The notes beneath the pieces are model-generated. The model did not search any database, had not been told where the DNA came from, and worked only from the letters and a program-made list of their open reading frames with translations. From a phage, in NCBI GenBank assembly GCA_024682255.1, contig GCA_024682255.1_4716.1: a stretch of 64,000 bases of DNA. One strand, given 5' to 3'. The position numbers and the translations under genes were made by a program. Position 1 is the first letter of the stretch. Each line of letters begins with the position of its first letter. Positions 1,743-53,649 of this stretch are shown here, one piece after another.

Positions 1743-2138
1743 TTACTCTTTGACGTCAGTTGTCGTTTCGACATGCTTCTCACTACTGACGTACCAGAGC
1801 AGGTACGCTGGGAAAAGATTGACCTCTAAGCTAAATGGGATATTGTATTTCTCTTCCATTTTACAGAGATGTTCTTTAAGTAAATTTCTCGCGTCTCTGT
1901 CACCACGAACAGAGTGCCAGTCTAGTTCTTTGTTCTCCTTTACCAGGACCTCTACGATGATACGTTGCTCGTGAACCTCGGTTTTCACAGTGAAAAGTAA
2001 ATCGCTGCTATCAAAACGGGTAAAACGAATGTATGAACCTGGTGTTTTTTCTTGTTTAATAATATCGATCATGGTAGAAATGCGCGGATGATCGATGTTG
2101 TCGTTAACAGCTTTAACGATGGATTCTACAATGCTCAT
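1743..2138 (-). CDS. Hypothetical protein (131 aa)
   Basis: ORF with AAGGA RBS before ATG; hairpin 1696-1728 downstream. Confidence 0.6.
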   Translation of the reverse strand: MSIVESIVKAVNDNIDHPRISTMIDIIKQEKTPGSYIRFTRFDSSDLLFTVKTEVHEQRIIVEVLVKENKELDWHSVRGDRDARNLLKEHLCKMEEKYNIPFSLEVNLFPAYLLWYVSSEKHVETTTDVKE

Positions 2139-2295
2139 TTTTTATCCTTAATGTTATCGATTTAGAAATATTACTTAATTACTGTTTTATTTATCGATGG
2201 TTGTTACCCATGATGGGAAAGCCGGATGGAAACAGAGCGTGAACGTAACCTTCGTATCGTATTTAATCGCTGAACTTTATCTTTGATAGACATGA

Positions 2296-2754
2296 TTACC
2301 CCTTAGCTCCTTCTTCGTCTGGAGAGTATTCCATCGTGTAGAATTCATAACCATCGGAAAACTTGAGTGTTAATGTAATAGGGAAATCGCACGGCATAGC
2401 TGATTTCGTAAATGCGTTATTAGCAACATCAGCCAACCGACGTATAGCATCGGTCCCGCTGACGCTGAACGGTAGTTGTATGTTGATAAGGATACGACGC
2501 TTGTAAACATAGAAAACAACGGTACTGTCGAGATAAACGCTATGGAACGGTATTGTTGGGATGCGTTCCACAATGGTAAAATACGTCCCGTCATTATCGC
2601 TATGCCCCATCGACCAAATATCGGATTTGCGTAGATTTTGTTTGAGGGATTCGATACTTCGAGTGACGGTCTCAGCAACAGGCGTGACGTAAGTGTCTCT
2701 ATGCGAGTCGAAAAGTTCGTTGACGTTAGATTCGAATGAATACATTGTTGCCAT
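2296..2754 (-). CDS. Hypothetical protein (152 aa), acidic C-terminus
   Basis: ORF in minus-strand array; hairpin 2783-2807 upstream. Confidence 0.55.
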   Translation of the reverse strand: MATMYSFESNVNELFDSHRDTYVTPVAETVTRSIESLKQNLRKSDIWSMGHSDNDGTYFTIVERIPTIPFHSVYLDSTVVFYVYKRRILINIQLPFSVSGTDAIRRLADVANNAFTKSAMPCDFPITLTLKFSDGYEFYTMEYSPDEEGAKG

Positions 2755-4658: not shown

Positions 4659-4690
4659 CCCTCTCCCAACCCGTAAGGGAAGGGAGAGGG
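4659..4690 (-). terminator. Conserved 32-nt hairpin element, copy 1
   Basis: CCCTCTCCC-AACCCGTAAGGGAA-GGGAGAGGG; identical copy at 11827-11858, variant at 51905-51936. Confidence 0.6.
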
Positions 4691-4703
4691 AATATTAAAA
4701 TTG

Positions 4704-5159
4704 TCACTTTATATTGAACGCTTTTCGCAACGCATTAAGAACTAAATTAATTTCTTGCGCTTGTAACTTTAATCCCTGTGCTGAGCCATCAAACCCAAGC
4801 CAACGCCATACAAGGCATTTTACAGGTTTGTTGCTATCGTCGATACTATATGTGATCTCCAGTGTACTTTGATACGCGTAGTCACCATGTGTTTTCAGTG
4901 ACTGATTGAAATAAATATCAAATGCTTCTTCTATAGCCTGTTTACCGCGATCGTTACAAACAAACGCGATGTATCCGTCGGAATATCCAACTTCCTCTGG
5001 ATGTCCTTGGCAGGAGAAAATACTGATGGCGTCTTGCTGAGCAAGATTGAACACCGTGAAGAAATCACCAAATAAAGGATCGAGATTTAATGCGTTGTTA
5101 TCGATAAGGTTCCTTACCGCTTTACGGTATTCTCCCAGACTATTGTTCGCTGTAAACAT
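4704..5159 (-). CDS. Hypothetical protein (151 aa)
   Basis: ORF in minus-strand array followed by conserved hairpin. Confidence 0.6.
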   Translation of the reverse strand: MFTANNSLGEYRKAVRNLIDNNALNLDPLFGDFFTVFNLAQQDAISIFSCQGHPEEVGYSDGYIAFVCNDRGKQAIEEAFDIYFNQSLKTHGDYAYQSTLEITYSIDDSNKPVKCLVWRWLGFDGSAQGLKLQAQEINLVLNALRKAFNIK

Positions 5160-5169
5160 TCTTTTACCT

Positions 5170-17269: not shown

Positions 17270-20200
17270 TACATAAACTCCTCGATGATGCAAATCCCAT
17301 TAGCACCGCGCCCACCAGGCTTAGCGGTTCCTGAGTAAGAGTTATCGTAAGCAGCACCACCACCCGAACCAGGCGCGAGGCCGTTATGGGCGGTGCCGAC
17401 ACCAGCACGGCCGCCACCGCCCCAATATGACGCACCCCCACATCCACCGGCGGCAAGAGTACCGGCTTGTCCATCGCTACCGTCTCCGCCCGGAATGCGT
17501 ATATCCCCGGTAGTAGGTACGCCCCCATAGCCACCGCCAGTGTTTGTGACAGTTGTTTTTCCTGCGCCTTGCCCGCCGGGAGCAGTTAGCAGGGATGCAA
17601 ATTTACTATCTCCACCCCCGTTCCCATTCGTCGCCCCAGAGCCACCGGAACCACCAGAACCAATTATAACAGAATAACTAGCAGCTGCTACCGTTATAAC
17701 CGAAATTACTGTTCCGCCAGCTCCTCCTCCAGCGCCAAAAAACGTTTCGCTGTTGGAATAAGCCTGACAACCGCCACCGCCACCGCCACCACCGGTTATC
17801 GTTACTCTAATCCGTTTTGTTCCTTGTGTTGGGGTGTACGTCCCTGACGATGTGAAAACACGCATATTCAGTAAACGCCCGACATATCCACTAGAATCGG
17901 CTAAACCAAGATCTTTAGCTGCTAACGTGATATTAGCCGTACCGTCGAAAGGTTTACCGTTAATCGTGCGCGCAGTTTGCAGCTTCGTCGCCGTTGCTGC
18001 GTTCCCTGATGTATTCTGGTTCCCCGCGGCGTTAACACCTGGTAGATTGATGTTCGCACTACCGTCGAACGCGACACCACCGATCGTCCTTGCTGTTTGC
18101 AGTTTTGTCGCCGTGGCGGCATTACCGGTCGTGTCTTGGTTACCGGTGGTGTTTACCCCAGGCAGGTTGATATTTGCCGTTCCGTTAAATGAGACACCAC
18201 CAATCGTCCTTGCCGTTTGCAACCTCGTTGCGGATGCCGCATTCCCCGTGGTGTTTTGGTTACCTGTTGCATTCACACCTGGGATACTATCCTTAGATGT
18301 GTAGATCTGTGCCCATTCCGACCAGTTCGCATCGGTTGAATCACGACGTGAACGTAAATAAGCTGGAGCGTGTGCACCTGAGGTACCTGACCACCCAATG
18401 AGGATTTCGCCTTCGCCGACCGATGAAGCACCTTTAAGATGAACAATGTTGCCGTAGGCTGTAGGGTATCCGTTATTGTACGCTTCATACATCTGGATAC
18501 CCGTGTTGCTGCCCTGGGTCGCATTAGCTAAAGCGGTGACCCGTCCTTTGGAAGCGAGCACGTTAATGCTAAAGCTAATATCGGTTGTACCGTCAAAGGC
18601 GACCCCGTTAATCTTCCGTGCTGTTTGGAGTTTCGTGGCAGTAGCCGCATTACCAGAGGTACTCTGATTACCTGCTTTGTTCACACCCGGTAAATCAATG
18701 TTGGCTGTTCCATCAAAGGACACGCCCCCTATGGTTCTCGCTGTCTGGAGTTTTGTTGCTGAACCAGCGTTTCCGGAAGTGCTTTGATTACCTGCCGCGT
18801 TGACACCTGGTAGGTTAATGCTAGCAGAGCCATCAAAAGAAACTCCGCCGATCGTGATCGGTGTTTTCAATTTCGTGGCTGTCGCGGCGTTACCCGTCGT
18901 ATTCTGATTGCCAGCCGCATTAACGCCTGGTAATGCGATATCGGTCGTACCATCGAACGCAACACCACCGATTTTACGGGCGGTCTGTAGCTTGGTCGCT
19001 GTAGCCGCGTTGCCGCTGGTATTTTGCGTGCCCGCTTCATTTACGCCTGGTAAATCAATGTTCGCAGTACCATCAAAAGAAACACCCCCGATGGTTCTCG
19101 CGGTCTGCAACTTCGTTGCACTTCCTGCGTTTCCGCTGGTGCTTTGATTTCCCGCTGCATTAACACCTGGTAGACTGATGCTGGCTGAACCATCGAAACT
19201 CACACCACCGATCGTAACAGCGGTTTTCAATTTCGTGGCGGTTGCTGCGTTACCGGTTGTATTTTGGTTGCCTGTCGCATTCACGCCAGGTAATGCAATA
19301 TCCGCTGTTCCGTCAAAGGCAACGCCACCGATTTTACGTGCAGTTTGTAGCTTGGTTGCACTAGCAGCGTTACCGCTGGTATTCTGGGTGCCTGCTTTGT
19401 TAACACCGGGGAGATCGATGTTAGCAGAACCATCGAAGCTGACGCCACCTATCGTTCTTGCGGTAGCGAGTTTAGCTGCTGTGGCTGCATTATTACCCAC
19501 TTTCAGCCAATCATCCCATGGACCATCCTGGCCGTTCCATGATGCCGTTAAACTACGTACGTAAATATTGCCGGTACGTACAGTGTAACGTTGCGTTCCA
19601 CCGAATTGCCCGGTTGGGAGCACTTCAATGTAACCTGCGGCGTTTGCTTCAGGGAAATTGTGGGCGATGTCCGCGTTCGTTGTTACTGGTTTAGACCAAA
19701 TACCAACAGACGCTTCGACTGGGCCGAAGGTATTCAGATTTGCGTCTATCGCCATAGCGCCATTAAATTTCAGGTATGTCTCTGGCGATAATCCGATCGT
19801 TTTAGCAAACGCAGCTTTATCTACGATATCACTACCGTTATTCCCTGCTTGCAACGCCGTCTTAGCTGCCTTTATGGTTTCGGTCAATCCAAGATATTGT
19901 AAGATCGCATCAACGCTTCCTTTGTTTAGCAGATTCAGACCTGTTGACGTTACGTTAGTTAGTCCGATTTGGTTCCGTCCAGTAAAATAAGGGAGTTTAT
20001 TCGCTTCTGTTGTTAGGTTAGACCACGCAGTCAACAACGCGTTCAAAGGCTGTTTACCCGCCAACGCATTGGTTACTGTCGTTGCGAAATTAGGATCGTT
20101 CCCTAAAGCTTGAGCCAGCTCATTAAGCGTATTTAGCGCTTCTGGAGACGAGTCGATCAGCGATGCGATAGCGCGCATCACAAATTCCGTGTTGGCAATC

Positions 20201-33609: not shown

Positions 33610-33686
33610 GGTTACTGTCCTATTGCATTGTGTTTAGATAAGGAGGATTTACCCGGTATTAAAAAGTTATTTGGTGTGTAATGTTT

Positions 33687-48955: not shown

Positions 48956-49975
48956 TTACACCGCCACCTTAGCCTTGATAGCCGGATGTGATTGATATCC
49001 GACGAACACGAAGTCTTCGTAACGGTAATCCGTAATACTTTCCGGTTTACGTACGATCGTTAGCTTCGGTAACGGATACGGTTCACGGCTGAGCTGCTCT
49101 TTAACCTGTTCGAAGTGGTTGTGATAGATGTGGCAGTCTCCACCCGTCCACACGAACTCGCCAACATCCATATTCAGCTGTTGGGCAAGCATGTGCGTTA
49201 GCAACGAATATGATGCGATGTTGAACGGTGTTCCGAGTAGCACGTCCTGTGATCTCGCGGTCAACATACACGACAAGGCACGCGTCGGTACGTTATGTGC
49301 ATTCAACCAAAGTTCCGTTTCACTATGTCGTACATCATCCGTAACCCACTGAGTTCTTAGTACGTCGTTACGTTGGACATAATCAACGCGTTCATCGATC
49401 GTGAGTTTGTGGGTATAGAACTGATAGAAACTGTGGCATGCGGGAAGCGCCATATCGTCTAAATCACCTACGTTCCACGCGCTAACGATGATCCGTCGAG
49501 AATCAGGATCTTCTTTAAGCTGGCGCATCACGTTTGCAATCTGATCGTGAGGTTTAACATACAAGAGATGTTTGACCATACCGGCGTCAACAACACCGCA
49601 ATACTCATAGCCGCGTTGCATCAACTCACGAGTACGTTCTGTATCGTGCGGAACAACCACTTTGTAGTCGATCCATTCCCGCCATTGTTTGCCGTAAATT
49701 GGTCCTAGATTCCCTTCTTCGTCAGCCCATTCATTCCAAATACGAACACCGTTATCTTGAAGATAAGCAACGTTTGTGTCACCGTTAAGAAACCAGAGCA
49801 GTTCGTGGATAACGCTCTTAAGGTGAATCTTCTTGGTGGTTACCAGCGGGAATCCTTTCTTCAAGTCAAAACGCATCTGACGTCCGAATACGGAACGGGT
49901 CCCGGTGCCTGTACGATCAGCTTTATCGCGACCGTTATCCATGATGTCTTGCAAAAGGTCCAAATACTGTTTCAT
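48956..49975 (-). CDS. thyA: Thymidylate synthase (ThyA family) with two insertions
   Basis: Motifs [41 protein letters not shown], catalytic Cys in [23 protein letters not shown]; 339 aa versus 264 in E. coli. Confidence 0.9.
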
Positions 49976-50339: not shown

Positions 50340-50888
50340 TTATTTCACAAGAACAGCGAATTCGAGAACGTAAATATTCTCGTCATCCATCGGATTTGTC
50401 GTGGTATAACCAACGAAACAATAACCCATATCCACGATAAATTCATTAAGTTTATCGATGGCCGATGCCTGGATGCGATCGTCAACAGACAAACAGCATT
50501 TACGGGTTATGTTCCGCCCACGAGGAACGCCAGCTAACACGCACAGGAAATGCACAATCCGGTTATTGGTTGCGAACTGCGCGTAATCATTGTAGCGTTT
50601 AAGGTCTTTCATCGTAGACTCTACCGTCATACGGCGACCGGGCGACACGTACTCAGAATAAGAATAAGCTGTGATTGTACGACGGTCTTCAGTTAAGTAA
50701 GTGTTCCCTTCGGGGTAGTAGTCTACGCCATCGCCATCAGCATCCACCACGGTTACAACAGGTGCACCGTACTCGTTACGATCAAAGTAAACTTTGCTCT
50801 TTTCCGAAATAGGAACGATAGTGCAAGGTTTTGCGTTGTTCTCATCTGGAAGATCGTAACCGCTCATCATTTTCAAAAACATAGACAT
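50340..50888 (-). CDS. Paralog family protein A (182 aa)
   Basis: Homologous along its length to 50975-51508 (shared NNAKP, TITAYSYS, conserved C-terminal half). Confidence 0.65.
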   Translation of the reverse strand: MSMFLKMMSGYDLPDENNAKPCTIVPISEKSKVYFDRNEYGAPVVTVVDADGDGVDYYPEGNTYLTEDRRTITAYSYSEYVSPGRRMTVESTMKDLKRYNDYAQFATNNRIVHFLCVLAGVPRGRNITRKCCLSVDDRIQASAIDKLNEFIVDMGYCFVGYTTTNPMDDENIYVLEFAVLVK

Positions 50889-50974: not shown

Positions 50975-51508
50975 CTACTTAACGATCGCGATGATTTTAC
51001 CGGCCGCACCGGCGTAATATGCCGTTAATTCACCAGTAAACAACTCTTGTAAAAGACGATTTACGTGACTAACAAAGTTAGGATTGTCTGATTTTACAAA
51101 CTCGATATTGCGCGTTTGTTTTATATCACGATCGATTAAACGGATTTCTAACAACGCACAAATAAGGCGATCGTCGAGTTTACCACTCGTATCCAACACT
51201 TCCCCATACGTCGTAGCACGGACGTCCGCATACATACGGTCAACATCATCCTTCCCAAAACCACAGGAATAGGCGTACGTTGCGATGGTATTACCGTTGT
51301 CCATCACGTAAACGTTACCGCCCGGGTAATCGATAAATCGTTGATCCTTATCGCCATGAGCGACGAACTCCAGTGTCGGTCTACCCATCGAATCACGGTT
51401 GAATTCAATTGTGGTCAAGCGATCTGGTACCACATGCAACGTAAACGGTTTTGCATTGTTACGATCGCTAGTATCACAGTTAGCCATTACTTTTACAATA
51501 ACACTCAT
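50975..51508 (-). CDS. Paralog family protein B (177 aa)
   Basis: Homologous to 50340-50888. Confidence 0.65.
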   Translation of the reverse strand: MSVIVKVMANCDTSDRNNAKPFTLHVVPDRLTTIEFNRDSMGRPTLEFVAHGDKDQRFIDYPGGNVYVMDNGNTIATYAYSCGFGKDDVDRMYADVRATTYGEVLDTSGKLDDRLICALLEIRLIDRDIKQTRNIEFVKSDNPNFVSHVNRLLQELFTGELTAYYAGAAGKIIAIVK

Positions 51509-51582: not shown

Positions 51583-51915
51583 TTACTGAAACAAGACATT
51601 AAATTCGACGAGATACCCATCGGATCTATCGCCGCGATATCTGTTGCAGAAAACACCGAATTTCATCAAGAACTCGCATAACTCTTCGGCTTTGTATAAC
51701 GGAATACGATTTTCGTCGAGCAGAGGACACTTATGGCTAACCCGCTCCGACGAATCAACGCAACACAAATAAAGAAGGAATCGAACAATAGCTCGGTTCT
51801 TAGTGAAGCTCTCGAATTCACCCGCGGTTCTGAACTCATCGAGGAGCTTTGTCGTTTTCTTCAATCGTTCACGATCAAGCATGTTAACCTCAATACGAAC
51901 ATAACCCTCCTCCAA
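51583..51915 (-). CDS. Paralog family protein C (110 aa; C-terminal domain only)
   Basis: Aligns with C-terminal halves of paralogs A and B (NR.IV.FL..L, C.L.D..RI, Y..EF.VL). Confidence 0.6.
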   Translation of the reverse strand: MEEGYVRIEVNMLDRERLKKTTKLLDEFRTAGEFESFTKNRAIVRFLLYLCCVDSSERVSHKCPLLDENRIPLYKAEELCEFLMKFGVFCNRYRGDRSDGYLVEFNVLFQ

Positions 51916-52311: not shown

Positions 52312-53637
52312 TCACTTCAGTAGCTTAGACGTCGCCATGCTTCGCGCTAACGCAACGTCATACGCATCCATGATCGCGTCACCGATAGCGGTATGACGGA
52401 TCAACGGAATACCCATGTCTGGATACTCTTTGGTGCCTAAGATGGATACCGGTTTGTCTTGATACGCAGCAATCATCGAACGGATATCCTGAACCTGGTT
52501 ATAACGACAAACTGGCTTAAAGCCCGCTTTACGGAACCAATGCTCTAATTGAGGCCAATCTGTTTCACCGCGAGCAAGATAATAGAAGGTATCTTTACCG
52601 TAGTATTCAGTCATTTTGTCACGAATACTGTTGACGAACGCATTTACTTCGGCGATGGCTTCTTTATAACCCATTGCCTTACAATGTTGAAAACAATAGT
52701 CGCGCGCTTCCTTTGGTGCTTTGGTTTGCCACCATTCTACTGTTGATTCACTGATACGACCGCCGTCAGCGATTTGACCATGAACGTCAGGGAAGATATC
52801 TATACGCGGACCGTTAACAATGGATTCTGGATTAGCCAGATCGAAGAACACGATACCGATTTCCAGCAATACTCCATTCTTTTCCAGACTAAGGTTTTCA
52901 ACATCTAAACAAAATGCAGGCTTCTCTACCGCTAACGGCTCGAACGAATGGTTGCTGGTATCCGATTCGGTTTTAAGTTCGACGACAACCGGATCGGTAT
53001 CCGTAGGTTTCAGTTCTACTACAGCATCATCGAGTCCCGATAACGAAAAATAGTCTTCGAAGAAATCGGGTATCGTCATACCATGCAAATTGATATCGCA
53101 ATCTTCCAACCATTGCTTCAACTGGTGCTCACCGGCATGAATCGCTAAACGACATGGTCCGGAACGATCATCTAGCGCTGCATCGATCCAGAAGAAAGCA
53201 CGTATAAGTAAGTAAGGATTATACTCCGCGATGATTTCTTGGCTAGCCGAGAAATCGTACACCATTAGTTGTATTATTCCCTTACGTGTGTTATACGGAT
53301 CAACTTTCAATCGACGCACTATTTCTTCTACGAATTCCAGCGCACGCGTGTACGATGTGGACCCACCTTGTTCATACGAACATATACCCGTCAAAAGTTC
53401 CTTATAGGACGCATATGGAACCATAGGCGATAATTTGTACGACAGTTCAGTATTGTAATTATCGCATAATTTCTTCGGGGCGATAGCATCCTGTATCGCT
53501 GTAATAAACGCCGGTCCATCAATATCAAACAACCATCCTTGACGCCGGTATGCAGTGTATCGTAATAACGCACCGATAACTGCCTGGGGCGGTGTATATT
53601 CTTTCCCGTTAATTTCAAACAGTAGTTTGCTCATCAT
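52312..53637 (-). CDS. Two-domain protein (441 aa): unknown N-terminal domain fused to DEDDh-type 3'-5' exonuclease domain
   Basis: C-terminal half carries Exo I-like LDVENLSLE and Exo III-like HTAIGDAIMDAYDVA (H.A..DA) motifs. Confidence 0.6.
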   Translation of the reverse strand: MMSKLLFEINGKEYTPPQAVIGALLRYTAYRRQGWLFDIDGPAFITAIQDAIAPKKLCDNYNTELSYKLSPMVPYASYKELLTGICSYEQGGSTSYTRALEFVEEIVRRLKVDPYNTRKGIIQLMVYDFSASQEIIAEYNPYLLIRAFFWIDAALDDRSGPCRLAIHAGEHQLKQWLEDCDINLHGMTIPDFFEDYFSLSGLDDAVVELKPTDTDPVVVELKTESDTSNHSFEPLAVEKPAFCLDVENLSLEKNGVLLEIGIVFFDLANPESIVNGPRIDIFPDVHGQIADGGRISESTVEWWQTKAPKEARDYCFQHCKAMGYKEAIAEVNAFVNSIRDKMTEYYGKDTFYYLARGETDWPQLEHWFRKAGFKPVCRYNQVQDIRSMIAAYQDKPVSILGTKEYPDMGIPLIRHTAIGDAIMDAYDVALARSMATSKLLK

Positions 53638-53649
53638 AACACCTTTTCA

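What the first reader, a model, noticed from the sequence alone, without database searches (positions are those of the whole stretch)
52312..53637. DEDDh 3'-5' exonuclease domain fused to an unknown 230-aa N-terminal domain
The C-terminal half carries Exo I (DVE) and Exo III (HTAIGDAIMD) motifs of DnaQ/RNase T-like exonucleases; the N-terminal half has no recognisable motif. Such fusions in phages could act in host nucleic-acid degradation, or as anti-defence nucleases degrading signalling nucleotides or defence RNAs.
Basis: partly seen in the sequence, partly recalled or inferred. Interest (0 to 1): 0.5.

Follow-up and report, generated by a model that had tools for sequence, protein, structure and literature searches.

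The report
DexA-like exonuclease with swappable N-domain
This gene of a Goslar-like nucleus-forming jumbo phage encodes an ordinary T4 DexA-type 3'-5' exonuclease fused to a helical domain found only in this phage group, and that domain exists in two almost unrelated, freely recombining versions, which hints that it is a contact surface in some host-phage or phage-phage conflict.

Summary
ORF 52312-53637 (-) encodes 441 aa. Residues 237-441 are a DEDDh exonuclease of the Rv2179c/DexA family: Pfam PF16473 E=3.5e-16, a profile match to T4 DexA (8KEL) at E=2.4e-31, and a Foldseek TM-score of 0.70-0.74. In 78 family members the only invariant columns are D245, E247, D360, H415, D420 and W303.

Residues 1-236 are a confidently modelled helical domain plus an acidic disordered linker. 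They have no relative in Pfam, PHROGs, PADLOC, NCBIfam, PDB or BFVD, or among 1.84 billion representative proteins.

The window is 93-96% identical to phage Goslar, but DNA homology breaks at the upstream gene's stop codon and resumes at codon 236. Goslar carries a different N-domain (about 20% identity; hhalign E=1.4e-4). Both types are common in Goslar-like phages from E. coli, Salmonella and Shigella assemblies. N-domain type is unlinked from the flanks, with linkage lost within 200-600 nt. The N-half evolves at ω≈0.34, against 0.06 for the catalytic half.

Most likely this is a DexA-like DNA-end or oligonucleotide exonuclease tethered to a Goslarvirus-specific partner-binding module. What the N-domain does is inferred, not shown. 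It is a new variant of a known kind, of moderate interest.

The parts
52312..53637 (-). Whole gene: 441-aa two-domain protein, ortholog of Goslar gp147 (annotated '3'-5' exoribonuclease')
53038..53637 (-). N-terminal folded domain (aa 1-~200): beta-hairpin 7-14, about nine helices, short strands at 163-166 and 206-209. pLDDT is mostly 82-96, with dips to about 61-68 at residues 31-40 and 151-170. It is acidic (pI 5.0). No relative was found outside Goslar-like phages.
52930..53037 (-). Acidic, disordered interdomain linker (aa ~201-236, pI 4.05; pLDDT <50 at 214-232). It includes a 22-aa insert that is absent from the Goslar-type protein.
52315..52929 (-). DEDDh 3'-5' exonuclease domain (aa 237-441), Rv2179c/DexA family. 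It is 91-96% identical across all Goslar-like phages.
52897..52905 (-). Exo I motif D245-V246-E247
52558..52560 (-). Exo II aspartate D360 (GETDWP; aligns with FDFP of T4 DexA)
52378..52395 (-). Exo III motif H415-x4-D420 (HTAIGD)
52932..53645 (.). 714-bp block with no DNA homology to Goslar inside a 64-kb window that is otherwise 93-96% identical. It runs from just after the stop codon of the upstream gene to codon 236: the swapped N-domain cassette with its own RBS.
53640..53645 (-). SD-like AAGGTG upstream of the tandem ATG ATG start; it is part of the cassette

Best explanation
The protein has two modules. (1) Residues 237-441 form a catalytically intact, Mg2+-dependent DEDDh 3'->5' exonuclease of the Rv2179c/DexA family. 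It most likely trims free 3' ends of DNA, and possibly RNA or oligonucleotides, down to mononucleotides, as T4 DexA does in host-DNA scavenging and in end resection during recombination and homing. (2) Residues 1-~200 form a Goslarvirus-specific helical domain, tethered by a flexible acidic linker. I infer that it does not catalyse anything. Instead it sets where, or with what partner, the nuclease acts, through protein-protein recognition, localisation or assembly state. This module exists in two deeply diverged but probably homologous versions, plus sub-variants. These are exchanged as a cassette among otherwise near-identical genomes, and the module evolves 3-6 times faster than the nuclease. 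I read this as a surface exposed to an antagonist or to a polymorphic partner. Shown here: the architecture, the intact active-site residues, the family assignment, the lineage restriction, the dimorphism, the recombination and the rate contrast. Inferred: the substrate, the non-catalytic targeting role of the N-domain, and selection as the cause of the dimorphism.
For: Exonuclease:
- Pfam PF16473, E=3.5e-16.
- Profile match to T4 DexA 8KEL, E=2.4e-31, with all motifs in register.
- In 78 sequences the only invariant columns are the DEDDh pentad and W303.
- The AF2 model has pLDDT mostly above 85 in this domain. Foldseek top hits are DexA (TM 0.70-0.74), then RNase T, CRN-4, Cap18, TREX1 and Rv2179c.
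- Strong purifying selection, ω 0.00-0.09.

Nucleotide-metabolism context:
- ThyA lies about 2.3 kb downstream in the window.
- The same linkage is seen in Salmonella phage SA002 and in the outgroup contig L018.
- A metallophosphoesterase and an HD-domain protein lie upstream in Goslar.

The N-domain is a real, folded, separate module:
- pLDDT is 82-96 over most of it, with dips to about 61-68 at residues 31-40 and 151-170, and the linker is disordered. pTM is 0.55.
- ω averages 0.34 and never exceeds 1, so the domain is under constraint.

Lineage restriction:
- Of 785 family members with E<=1e-5, 120 were listed. Nearly all of these are single-domain proteins of 170-210 aa.
- The nearest outgroup, P0040, is 244 aa.
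- phmmer against 1.84e9 representative proteins finds only window-type proteins.

Dimorphism and recombination:
- BLASTP against Goslar gp147.
- Per-domain identities to the window protein are 88->59->20% for the N-half and 91-96% for the C-half.
- hhalign between the two types gives E=1.4e-4, collinear over 179 columns.
- The junctions are exact.
- Identity of the flanks within a type equals identity between types (88.8 vs 88.8; 93.3 vs 93.2). L012 (Goslar-type) and L023 (window-type) are 97% identical on both sides.
- Linkage (r2) falls to background within 200-600 nt.
- Both types are found in phages from E. coli, Salmonella and Shigella assemblies, in clusters of tens to hundreds of members.
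Against: - No experiment exists, and no paper mentions Goslar gp147.
- The substrate (DNA or RNA) cannot be told from sequence: DexA is a DNase, Rv2179c is annotated as an RNase, and RNase T cuts both.
- ω in the N-half is below 1 in every 30-codon window (maximum 0.80). Positive selection is therefore not demonstrated, and relaxed constraint plus ordinary phage mosaicism could give much of the pattern.
- No partner was identified. No co-varying locus lies within +-2-3 kb.
- The neighbouring genes are all ORFans.
- Homology between the two N-domain types rests on a modest hhalign score (52% probability).
Confidence: 0.5

Rival explanations
1. Neutral mosaicism. The N-domain is a weakly constrained accessory module, for example an oligomerisation or solubility domain of a DexA-like scavenging nuclease. 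The two versions are simply old alleles brought in by recombination with diverged relatives, with no conflict involved.
For: ω stays below 1 everywhere in the N-half. The window also carries whole-ORF replacements relative to Goslar at 1746-2309 and 4668-5169, so cassette exchange is common in this genome. T4 DexA works as a dimer or tetramer, and its assembly state changes its substrate choice (PMC12153337), so an added assembly domain is plausible. No partner or co-varying locus was found.
Against: This is the only intragenic swap in 64 kb, and it falls exactly on the domain boundary. Both types persist in many genome backgrounds and in three host genera. At ~20% identity the two types are far more diverged than the genome background (dS 0.3-0.6). 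The N-half is the fastest-evolving segment among 13 neighbouring gene segments. The domain is well folded and still under constraint.
Confidence: 0.25
2. Anti-defence nuclease. The exonuclease destroys a nucleic-acid component or a linear nucleotide signal of a host defence system. The N-domain recognises that system, and host polymorphism drives the variation in the N-domain.
For: The fast, dimorphic, recombining N-domain fits an arms-race interface. Nucleus-forming phages keep their DNA in the phage nucleus, so proteins left in the cytoplasm are the ones that can meet host defences (PMC12908238). Where gp147 itself localises is unknown. DexA-family nucleases are used on both sides of phage-host conflict (HREX, PMC12153337). 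In the outgroup contig an AcrVA2-like gene lies two genes downstream of the exonuclease.
Against: There is no similarity to any known anti-defence enzyme and no PADLOC hit. A DEDDh exonuclease needs a free 3' end, so cyclic oligonucleotide signals are poor substrates. The catalytic domain is nearly invariant, and single-domain relatives are widespread housekeeping-type phage genes. N-domain type does not track host genus.
Confidence: 0.15
3. Localisation determinant. The N-domain decides whether the nuclease is imported into, or kept out of, the phage nucleus through the PicA/Imp selective import system. The two versions reflect divergence of import specificity between competing co-infecting relatives.
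For: Chimalliviruses import proteins selectively by surface recognition. Differences in the import of nucleases act as barriers between related phages (PMC12908238). A nuclease is the kind of cargo whose location matters.
Against: The two types recombine freely within one population and share near-identical backgrounds. That fits poorly with a speciation barrier that must match an importer encoded elsewhere in the genome. No importer allele was examined. No localisation data exist for gp147. RAY's cytoplasmic 'exonuclease' gp064 could not be shown to be a homolog.
Confidence: 0.1

Closest known systems
Bacteriophage T4 DexA (exonuclease A; PDB 8KEL/8KEN; Kang et al., NAR 2025, PMC12153337)
   Same: It has the same Pfam family (PF16473), the same DEDDh motifs in register (profile E=2.4e-31) and the best structural match (TM 0.70-0.74). 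It is a phage-encoded enzyme linked to nucleotide supply. DexA feeds dNMPs from host DNA and resects ends in intron homing.
   Different: DexA is a 227-aa single-domain protein, only about 20% identical to this C-domain. It has no N-terminal module. T4 DNA carries 5hmC, and DexA's dimer-tetramer switch discriminates modified from unmodified DNA; nothing is known about this for Goslar-like phages. The protein here carries a 236-aa lineage-specific, dimorphic extension.
Escherichia phage Goslar gp147 (YP_009820832.1, annotated '3'-5' exoribonuclease')
   Same: It is the positional ortholog in a 93-96% identical, collinear genome. The C-domain is about 93-95% identical and the two-domain architecture is the same.
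   Different: Its N-domain (204 aa) is only about 20% identical and is undetectable by BLAST; only hhalign finds it, at E=1.4e-4. It lacks the 22-aa acidic linker insert. It represents the other allele class.
Mycobacterium tuberculosis Rv2179c (PDB 4HVJ) and RNase T / oligoribonuclease-type DEDDh enzymes
   Same: They share the fold and the catalytic pentad. Rv2179c is the Pfam family's namesake (TM 0.67). RNase T scores TM about 0.60.
   Different: They are cellular, single-domain RNA- or oligonucleotide-processing enzymes. Sequence identity is 12-15%. None has a comparable N-terminal module.
Domain-level cassette exchange in phage proteins, as in tail-fibre receptor-binding tips (from general knowledge, not tested here)
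   Same: A conserved half is joined to a hypervariable half that is exchanged by recombination at the domain boundary. Several deeply diverged alleles coexist in one phage population.
   Different: The variable half here sits on an intracellular nuclease, not on a virion adsorption protein, and its ligand is unknown.

Membership tests
DEDDh (DnaQ-like) 3'-5' exonuclease superfamily | Exo I motif D-x-E | tested here: met
   D245-V246-E247 is invariant in 78 family members and aligns with D-F-E of T4 DexA.
DEDDh (DnaQ-like) 3'-5' exonuclease superfamily | Exo II aspartate | tested here: met
   D360 is invariant and aligns with FDFP of DexA.
DEDDh (DnaQ-like) 3'-5' exonuclease superfamily | Exo III H-x4-D (the 'h' subtype) | tested here: met
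   H415 and D420 are invariant and align with H-D-S-I-H-D of DexA.
DEDDh (DnaQ-like) 3'-5' exonuclease superfamily | RNase H-like alpha/beta fold | tested here: met
   The AF2 model has high pLDDT in this domain. Foldseek hits to DexA, RNase T, TREX1, ExoI and ERI1 all have probability 1.00.
DEDDh (DnaQ-like) 3'-5' exonuclease superfamily | Metal-dependent 3'-5' exonuclease activity | not testable with these tools
   Needs an enzyme assay.
Pfam PF16473 Rv2179c-like / T4 DexA family | Score above the Pfam gathering threshold | tested here: met
   59.9 bits against a cut-off of 27, covering profile positions 4-170 of 177.
Pfam PF16473 Rv2179c-like / T4 DexA family | Typical single-domain architecture of about 170-230 aa | tested here: not met
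   The protein is 441 aa with a 236-aa N-terminal extension. Of 785 relatives, the 120 listed are nearly all 170-210 aa. This is a family member by its catalytic domain but an architectural variant.
Pfam PF16473 Rv2179c-like / T4 DexA family | Homo-oligomer (DexA dimer/tetramer) forming the functional unit | not testable with these tools
   Only monomer prediction was available.
Known phage anti-defence nucleases or phosphodiesterases (Acb1, Apyc1, ring nucleases) and defence-system proteins | Sequence or profile similarity to a described family | tested here: not met
   There is no PADLOC hit for the full protein or for either N-domain type. Pfam, PHROGs and NCBIfam give only the exonuclease family or nothing. 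The structural similarity to Cap18 (7T2S) is the generic DEDDh fold.
N-terminal domain: any described protein family or fold | A significant sequence or structure match | tested here: not met

The most novel reading that the evidence does not exclude
The N-domain is a specificity module kept polymorphic by balancing or negative frequency-dependent selection. Each allele class would recognise, or evade, a different variant of a polymorphic antagonist: a host immune or nuclease component, or a competing phage's factor. It would thereby direct or license the tethered DexA-like exonuclease. If so, it is a new kind of modular 'targeted nuclease' weapon in nucleus-forming phages, and a natural handle for finding what cytoplasmic conflicts these phages still face.
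Probability: 0.25. Interest if true: 0.75.

Novelty: new variant of a known kind. Interest (0 to 1): 0.45.

Why it matters
The catalytic half is ordinary and is already annotated in Goslar. The new part is the architecture and its population genetics. A DexA-type nuclease has gained a lineage-specific domain that is the fastest-evolving segment of its neighbourhood. That domain exists as two near-unrelated alleles which recombine as an exact cassette among near-identical genomes. In nucleus-forming phages the genome is shielded from DNA-targeting defences. The remaining points of contact with the host, and with competing phages, are poorly known. A dimorphic surface on a nuclease is a concrete, testable candidate for such a contact. 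Goslar is a tractable E. coli model with CRISPRi-ART knock-down, and about 237 related genomes now exist in public assemblies, so allele swaps and association tests are feasible at once.

Tried and rejected
- N-domain alone in sequence searches. The word-indexed search found 3 hits, all of the window type. The exhaustive phmmer run against 1.84e9 representatives found 2 hits. No remote homologs.
- PDB sequence and profile searches for the N-half gave only chance-level Mediator Med22 matches, E about 0.2. Rejected.
- BFVD Foldseek matched only Goslar gp147.
- The first AF2 run with a shallow alignment modelled the exonuclease poorly (pLDDT <50). This was an effect of alignment depth and was fixed with A5.
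- Separate genes fused by an ORF-calling artefact: rejected. One continuous ORF is present in more than 20 distinct sequences of both types. A few split or truncated copies exist (L004, P0024, and the 332/344-aa NCBI calls). These may be assembly or annotation errors, or pseudogenes.
- Host-genus adaptation as the cause of the dimorphism: rejected, because both types occur in E. coli, Salmonella and Shigella assemblies.
- A co-varying partner gene in the flanks: none within +-2-3 kb.
- A paralog of the N-domain elsewhere in the window or in the syntenic 70 kb of Goslar: none.
- RAY gp064, the 'cytoplasmic exonuclease', as a guide to localisation: homology could not be shown, since no Erwinia RAY hit appeared. 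Not used.
- Phage Sharanji is an unrelated jumbo phage (121Q-like) and is irrelevant.
- Complete E. coli RefSeq genomes and the GTDB representative genomes hold no copy.
- Sigma-70 promoter and terminator scans found no more sites than shuffled sequence. They are also not suited to this phage's own RNA polymerases.

Full report
**1. Observation**

The window carries a 441-aa ATG ORF at 52312..53637 on the minus strand, exactly as reported. An SD-like AAGGTG lies just upstream of a tandem ATG-ATG start. The C-terminal half matches Pfam PF16473 (Rv2179c-like 3'-5' exoribonuclease domain) at E=3.5e-16, 59.9 bits against a cut-off of 27, over aa 243-425. It also matches phrog_255 'exonuclease' at E=1e-27.

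I aligned the domain with single-domain homologs from Salmonella phage SA002, Xanthomonas phage X1, Stenotrophomonas phage Moby and Hafnia phage Enc34. Used as a profile, this alignment hits the solved 227-aa T4 DexA (8KEL/8KEN) at E=2.4e-31 over the whole domain. D-x-E, FDFP and H-x4-D are in register. The Foldseek listing titles 8KEL 'Structure of DexA', and the DexA paper PMC12153337 cites that entry code.

In a 78-sequence alignment of the wider family, the only invariant columns are D245, E247, W303, D360, H415 and D420. This is the DEDDh pentad plus one tryptophan.

With the deeper alignment AlphaFold2 models both halves well: mean pLDDT 83.7, with a disordered linker at 214-232. Foldseek against the PDB ranks T4 DexA first (TM 0.70-0.74, E=2e-8). 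RNase T, CRN-4, Cap18, TREX1, ExoI, ERI1 and Rv2179c (4HVJ) follow.

**2. The N-terminal half**

Residues 1-236 match nothing in any library searched:
- Pfam, PHROGs, PADLOC and NCBIfam;
- PDB sequences, where only chance-level Med22 matches appear;
- an exhaustive phmmer scan of 1.84 billion representative proteins, where the only two hits are close window-type relatives.

The domain is nevertheless a real folded unit. Both AF2 runs give pLDDT 82-96 over most of residues 1-200, with dips to about 61-68 at residues 31-40 and 151-170. The model has a beta-hairpin at 7-14, about nine helices and two short strands.

- The viral structure library returns only Goslar gp147 itself.

The domain is mildly acidic (pI 5.0). 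The linker at 201-236 is strongly acidic (pI 4.05).

**3. Genomic setting**

[quoted passage not shown] Apart from the window edge, only three blocks lack homology. Two of them (1746-2309 and 4668-5169) are whole small ORFs. The third, 52932-53645, lies inside this gene.

Homology stops at the stop codon of the upstream gene (the gp148 homolog) and resumes at codons A236-V237-E238. Against Goslar gp147, the protein is about 95% identical from residue 237 onward and essentially unrelated before it.

The two N-domains are invisible to each other by tblastn. A profile-profile comparison, however, aligns them collinearly over 179 columns at E=1.4e-4, 52% probability and 23% identity. They also share a few anchor residues (M2, L5, I9, K12, E13, Y78, R109, T117, K119, Q123, P141, F148). 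They are probably very distant homologs occupying the same slot.

**4. Distribution and evolution**

Database searches recovered about 20 distinct full-length relatives and seven further metagenomic loci. All come from Goslar-like genomes. They fall into a window type (433-441 aa, with sub-variants down to 59% N-domain identity) and a Goslar type (409-414 aa).

Identity to the window protein falls 88->59->20% in the N-half. It stays at 91-96% in the C-half.

I computed Nei-Gojobori estimates over ten loci:

| Segment | dN | dS | ω |
|---|---|---|---|
| N-half, window type | 0.208 | 0.614 | 0.34 |
| N-half, Goslar type | 0.092 | 0.342 | 0.27 |
| C-half | 0.028-0.048 | 0.448-0.483 | 0.06-0.11 |
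| Eleven neighbouring genes | 0.007-0.152 | 0.152-1.334 | 0.03-0.20 |

A sliding window shows ω of 0.14-0.80 across the N-half, with peaks at codons 46-105 and 181-225. It drops abruptly to 0.00-0.09 from about codon 226. No window exceeds 1, so positive selection is not demonstrated by this crude test.

N-domain type is unlinked from its flanks:

| Region | Mean identity within type | Mean identity between types |
|---|---|---|
| Upstream 1.2 kb | 88.8% | 88.8% |
| C-domain | 90.6% | 87.8% |
| Downstream | 93.3% | 93.2% |

L012 (Goslar type) and L023 (window type) are 97% identical on both sides. Site-wise association with N-domain type decays to background within about 200 nt upstream and 400-600 nt downstream. 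No secondary peak appears within +-2-3 kb.

Both types occur in phages carried in E. coli, Salmonella and Shigella assemblies, in clusters of tens to hundreds of member sequences. This fits the recent expansion of Goslarvirus to about 237 genomes (bioRxiv 10.1101/2025.05.06.652010). The dimorphism is therefore not a host-genus adaptation.

Outside the Goslar clade the family is almost entirely single-domain. Of 785 relatives, the 120 listed are nearly all 170-210 aa. The nearest outgroup (P0040, 48% identical) is 244 aa and lacks the domain.

**5. How it most likely works**

Shown: a catalytically intact DexA-family DEDDh exonuclease under strong purifying selection. It is tethered by a flexible acidic linker to a lineage-specific, folded helical domain. 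That domain is fast-evolving and dimorphic and is exchanged as an exact cassette.

Inferred: the nuclease acts on free 3' ends of DNA or oligonucleotides, as T4 DexA does in host-DNA scavenging and in end resection for intron homing (PMC12153337). Repeated linkage with thymidylate synthase supports this: in the window, in SA002 and in L018, where ThyA is interrupted by a GIY-YIG homing endonuclease.

Also inferred: the N-domain is non-catalytic. I read it as a partner-recognition, localisation or assembly module. Its persistence as two deeply diverged alleles in a freely recombining population suggests selection from a polymorphic antagonist or partner.

Confidence is high (about 0.9) that the C-half is an active 3'-5' exonuclease. 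It is about 0.45-0.5 for the targeting or conflict-interface role of the N-half.

Three rivals remain:
- neutral mosaicism of a weakly constrained accessory or oligomerisation domain (0.25);
- a determinant of import into, or exclusion from, the phage nucleus (0.10; background in PMC12908238).

**6. Comparison with what is known**

By its catalytic domain the protein belongs to PF16473 and the DEDDh superfamily; all sequence and fold criteria are met. Its architecture departs from the family norm of a single domain.

The Goslar ortholog is already annotated as a 3'-5' exoribonuclease. No paper in the searched library mentions gp147, and I found no description of the N-domain or its dimorphism. 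There is no similarity to known anti-defence nucleases or to defence proteins.

I rate it a new variant of a known kind, with interest 0.45. The enzyme is ordinary. The dimorphic cassette on an intracellular nuclease of a nucleus-forming phage is a clean and testable lead, but its function is unproven.

Noticed in passing
window 51583-51915 (-); also 50340-50888 (-) and 50975-51508 (-): A small modular paralog family lies just downstream of the exonuclease. The gp143 and gp144 homologs share their first ~80 aa (37% identity). The 110-aa ORF at 51583-51915 shares a C-terminal module with the gp143 homolog (E=3e-8). That ORF is conserved at 72% aa identity in L007, and its real start is probably M12. 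Goslar RefSeq instead annotates gp145 on the opposite strand at this position, which is probably a wrong-strand call.
   Followed up: partly
window 1746-2309 (ORF 1743-2138, -) and 4668-5169 (ORF 4704-5159, -): Two further blocks have no DNA homology to Goslar. Each replaces a whole small ORF (131 aa and 151 aa) inside an array of small hypothetical genes corresponding to Goslar gp070-gp076.
   Followed up: no
window ~33642-33686 and ~39427: Goslar gp108 (record 115268-115653) and gp120 (record 121395-122105) have no counterpart in the window; these are clean deletions or insertions.
   Followed up: no
window ~17900-19500: The P1 gpS-like tail-fibre gene contains internal repeats, seen as many off-diagonal 65-76% matches. 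It is only about 82% identical to Goslar, the lowest among the homologous segments.
   Followed up: no
window 48956-49975 (ThyA) relative to 52312-53637; L014 (SA002); L018: A DexA-like exonuclease and thymidylate synthase lie within a few genes of each other in three different phages. In L018 ThyA is split by a GIY-YIG/NUMOD3 homing-endonuclease gene, and an AcrVA2-like (PF26125) gene lies two genes downstream of the exonuclease.
   Followed up: partly
L004 9541-10858; P0024; NCBI members P0156-P0158: Some copies of the gene are split or truncated: 156 aa + 285 aa in Logan contig SRR11059114, a C-terminal frameshift in P0024, and 332/344-aa calls in E. coli O157 and Shigella assemblies. I could not tell whether these are assembly or annotation errors or real pseudogenes.
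   Followed up: no
L018 341-421 (P0040 N-terminus) vs window protein aa 187-197: By eye, the short N-terminal extension of the single-domain outgroup ('PKFTLRDIIEG') resembles the last helix before the linker in both N-domain types ('MTIPDFFEDYF' and 'ITFSQFIRETF'). That helix may belong to the ancestral exonuclease rather than to the added domain.
   Followed up: no
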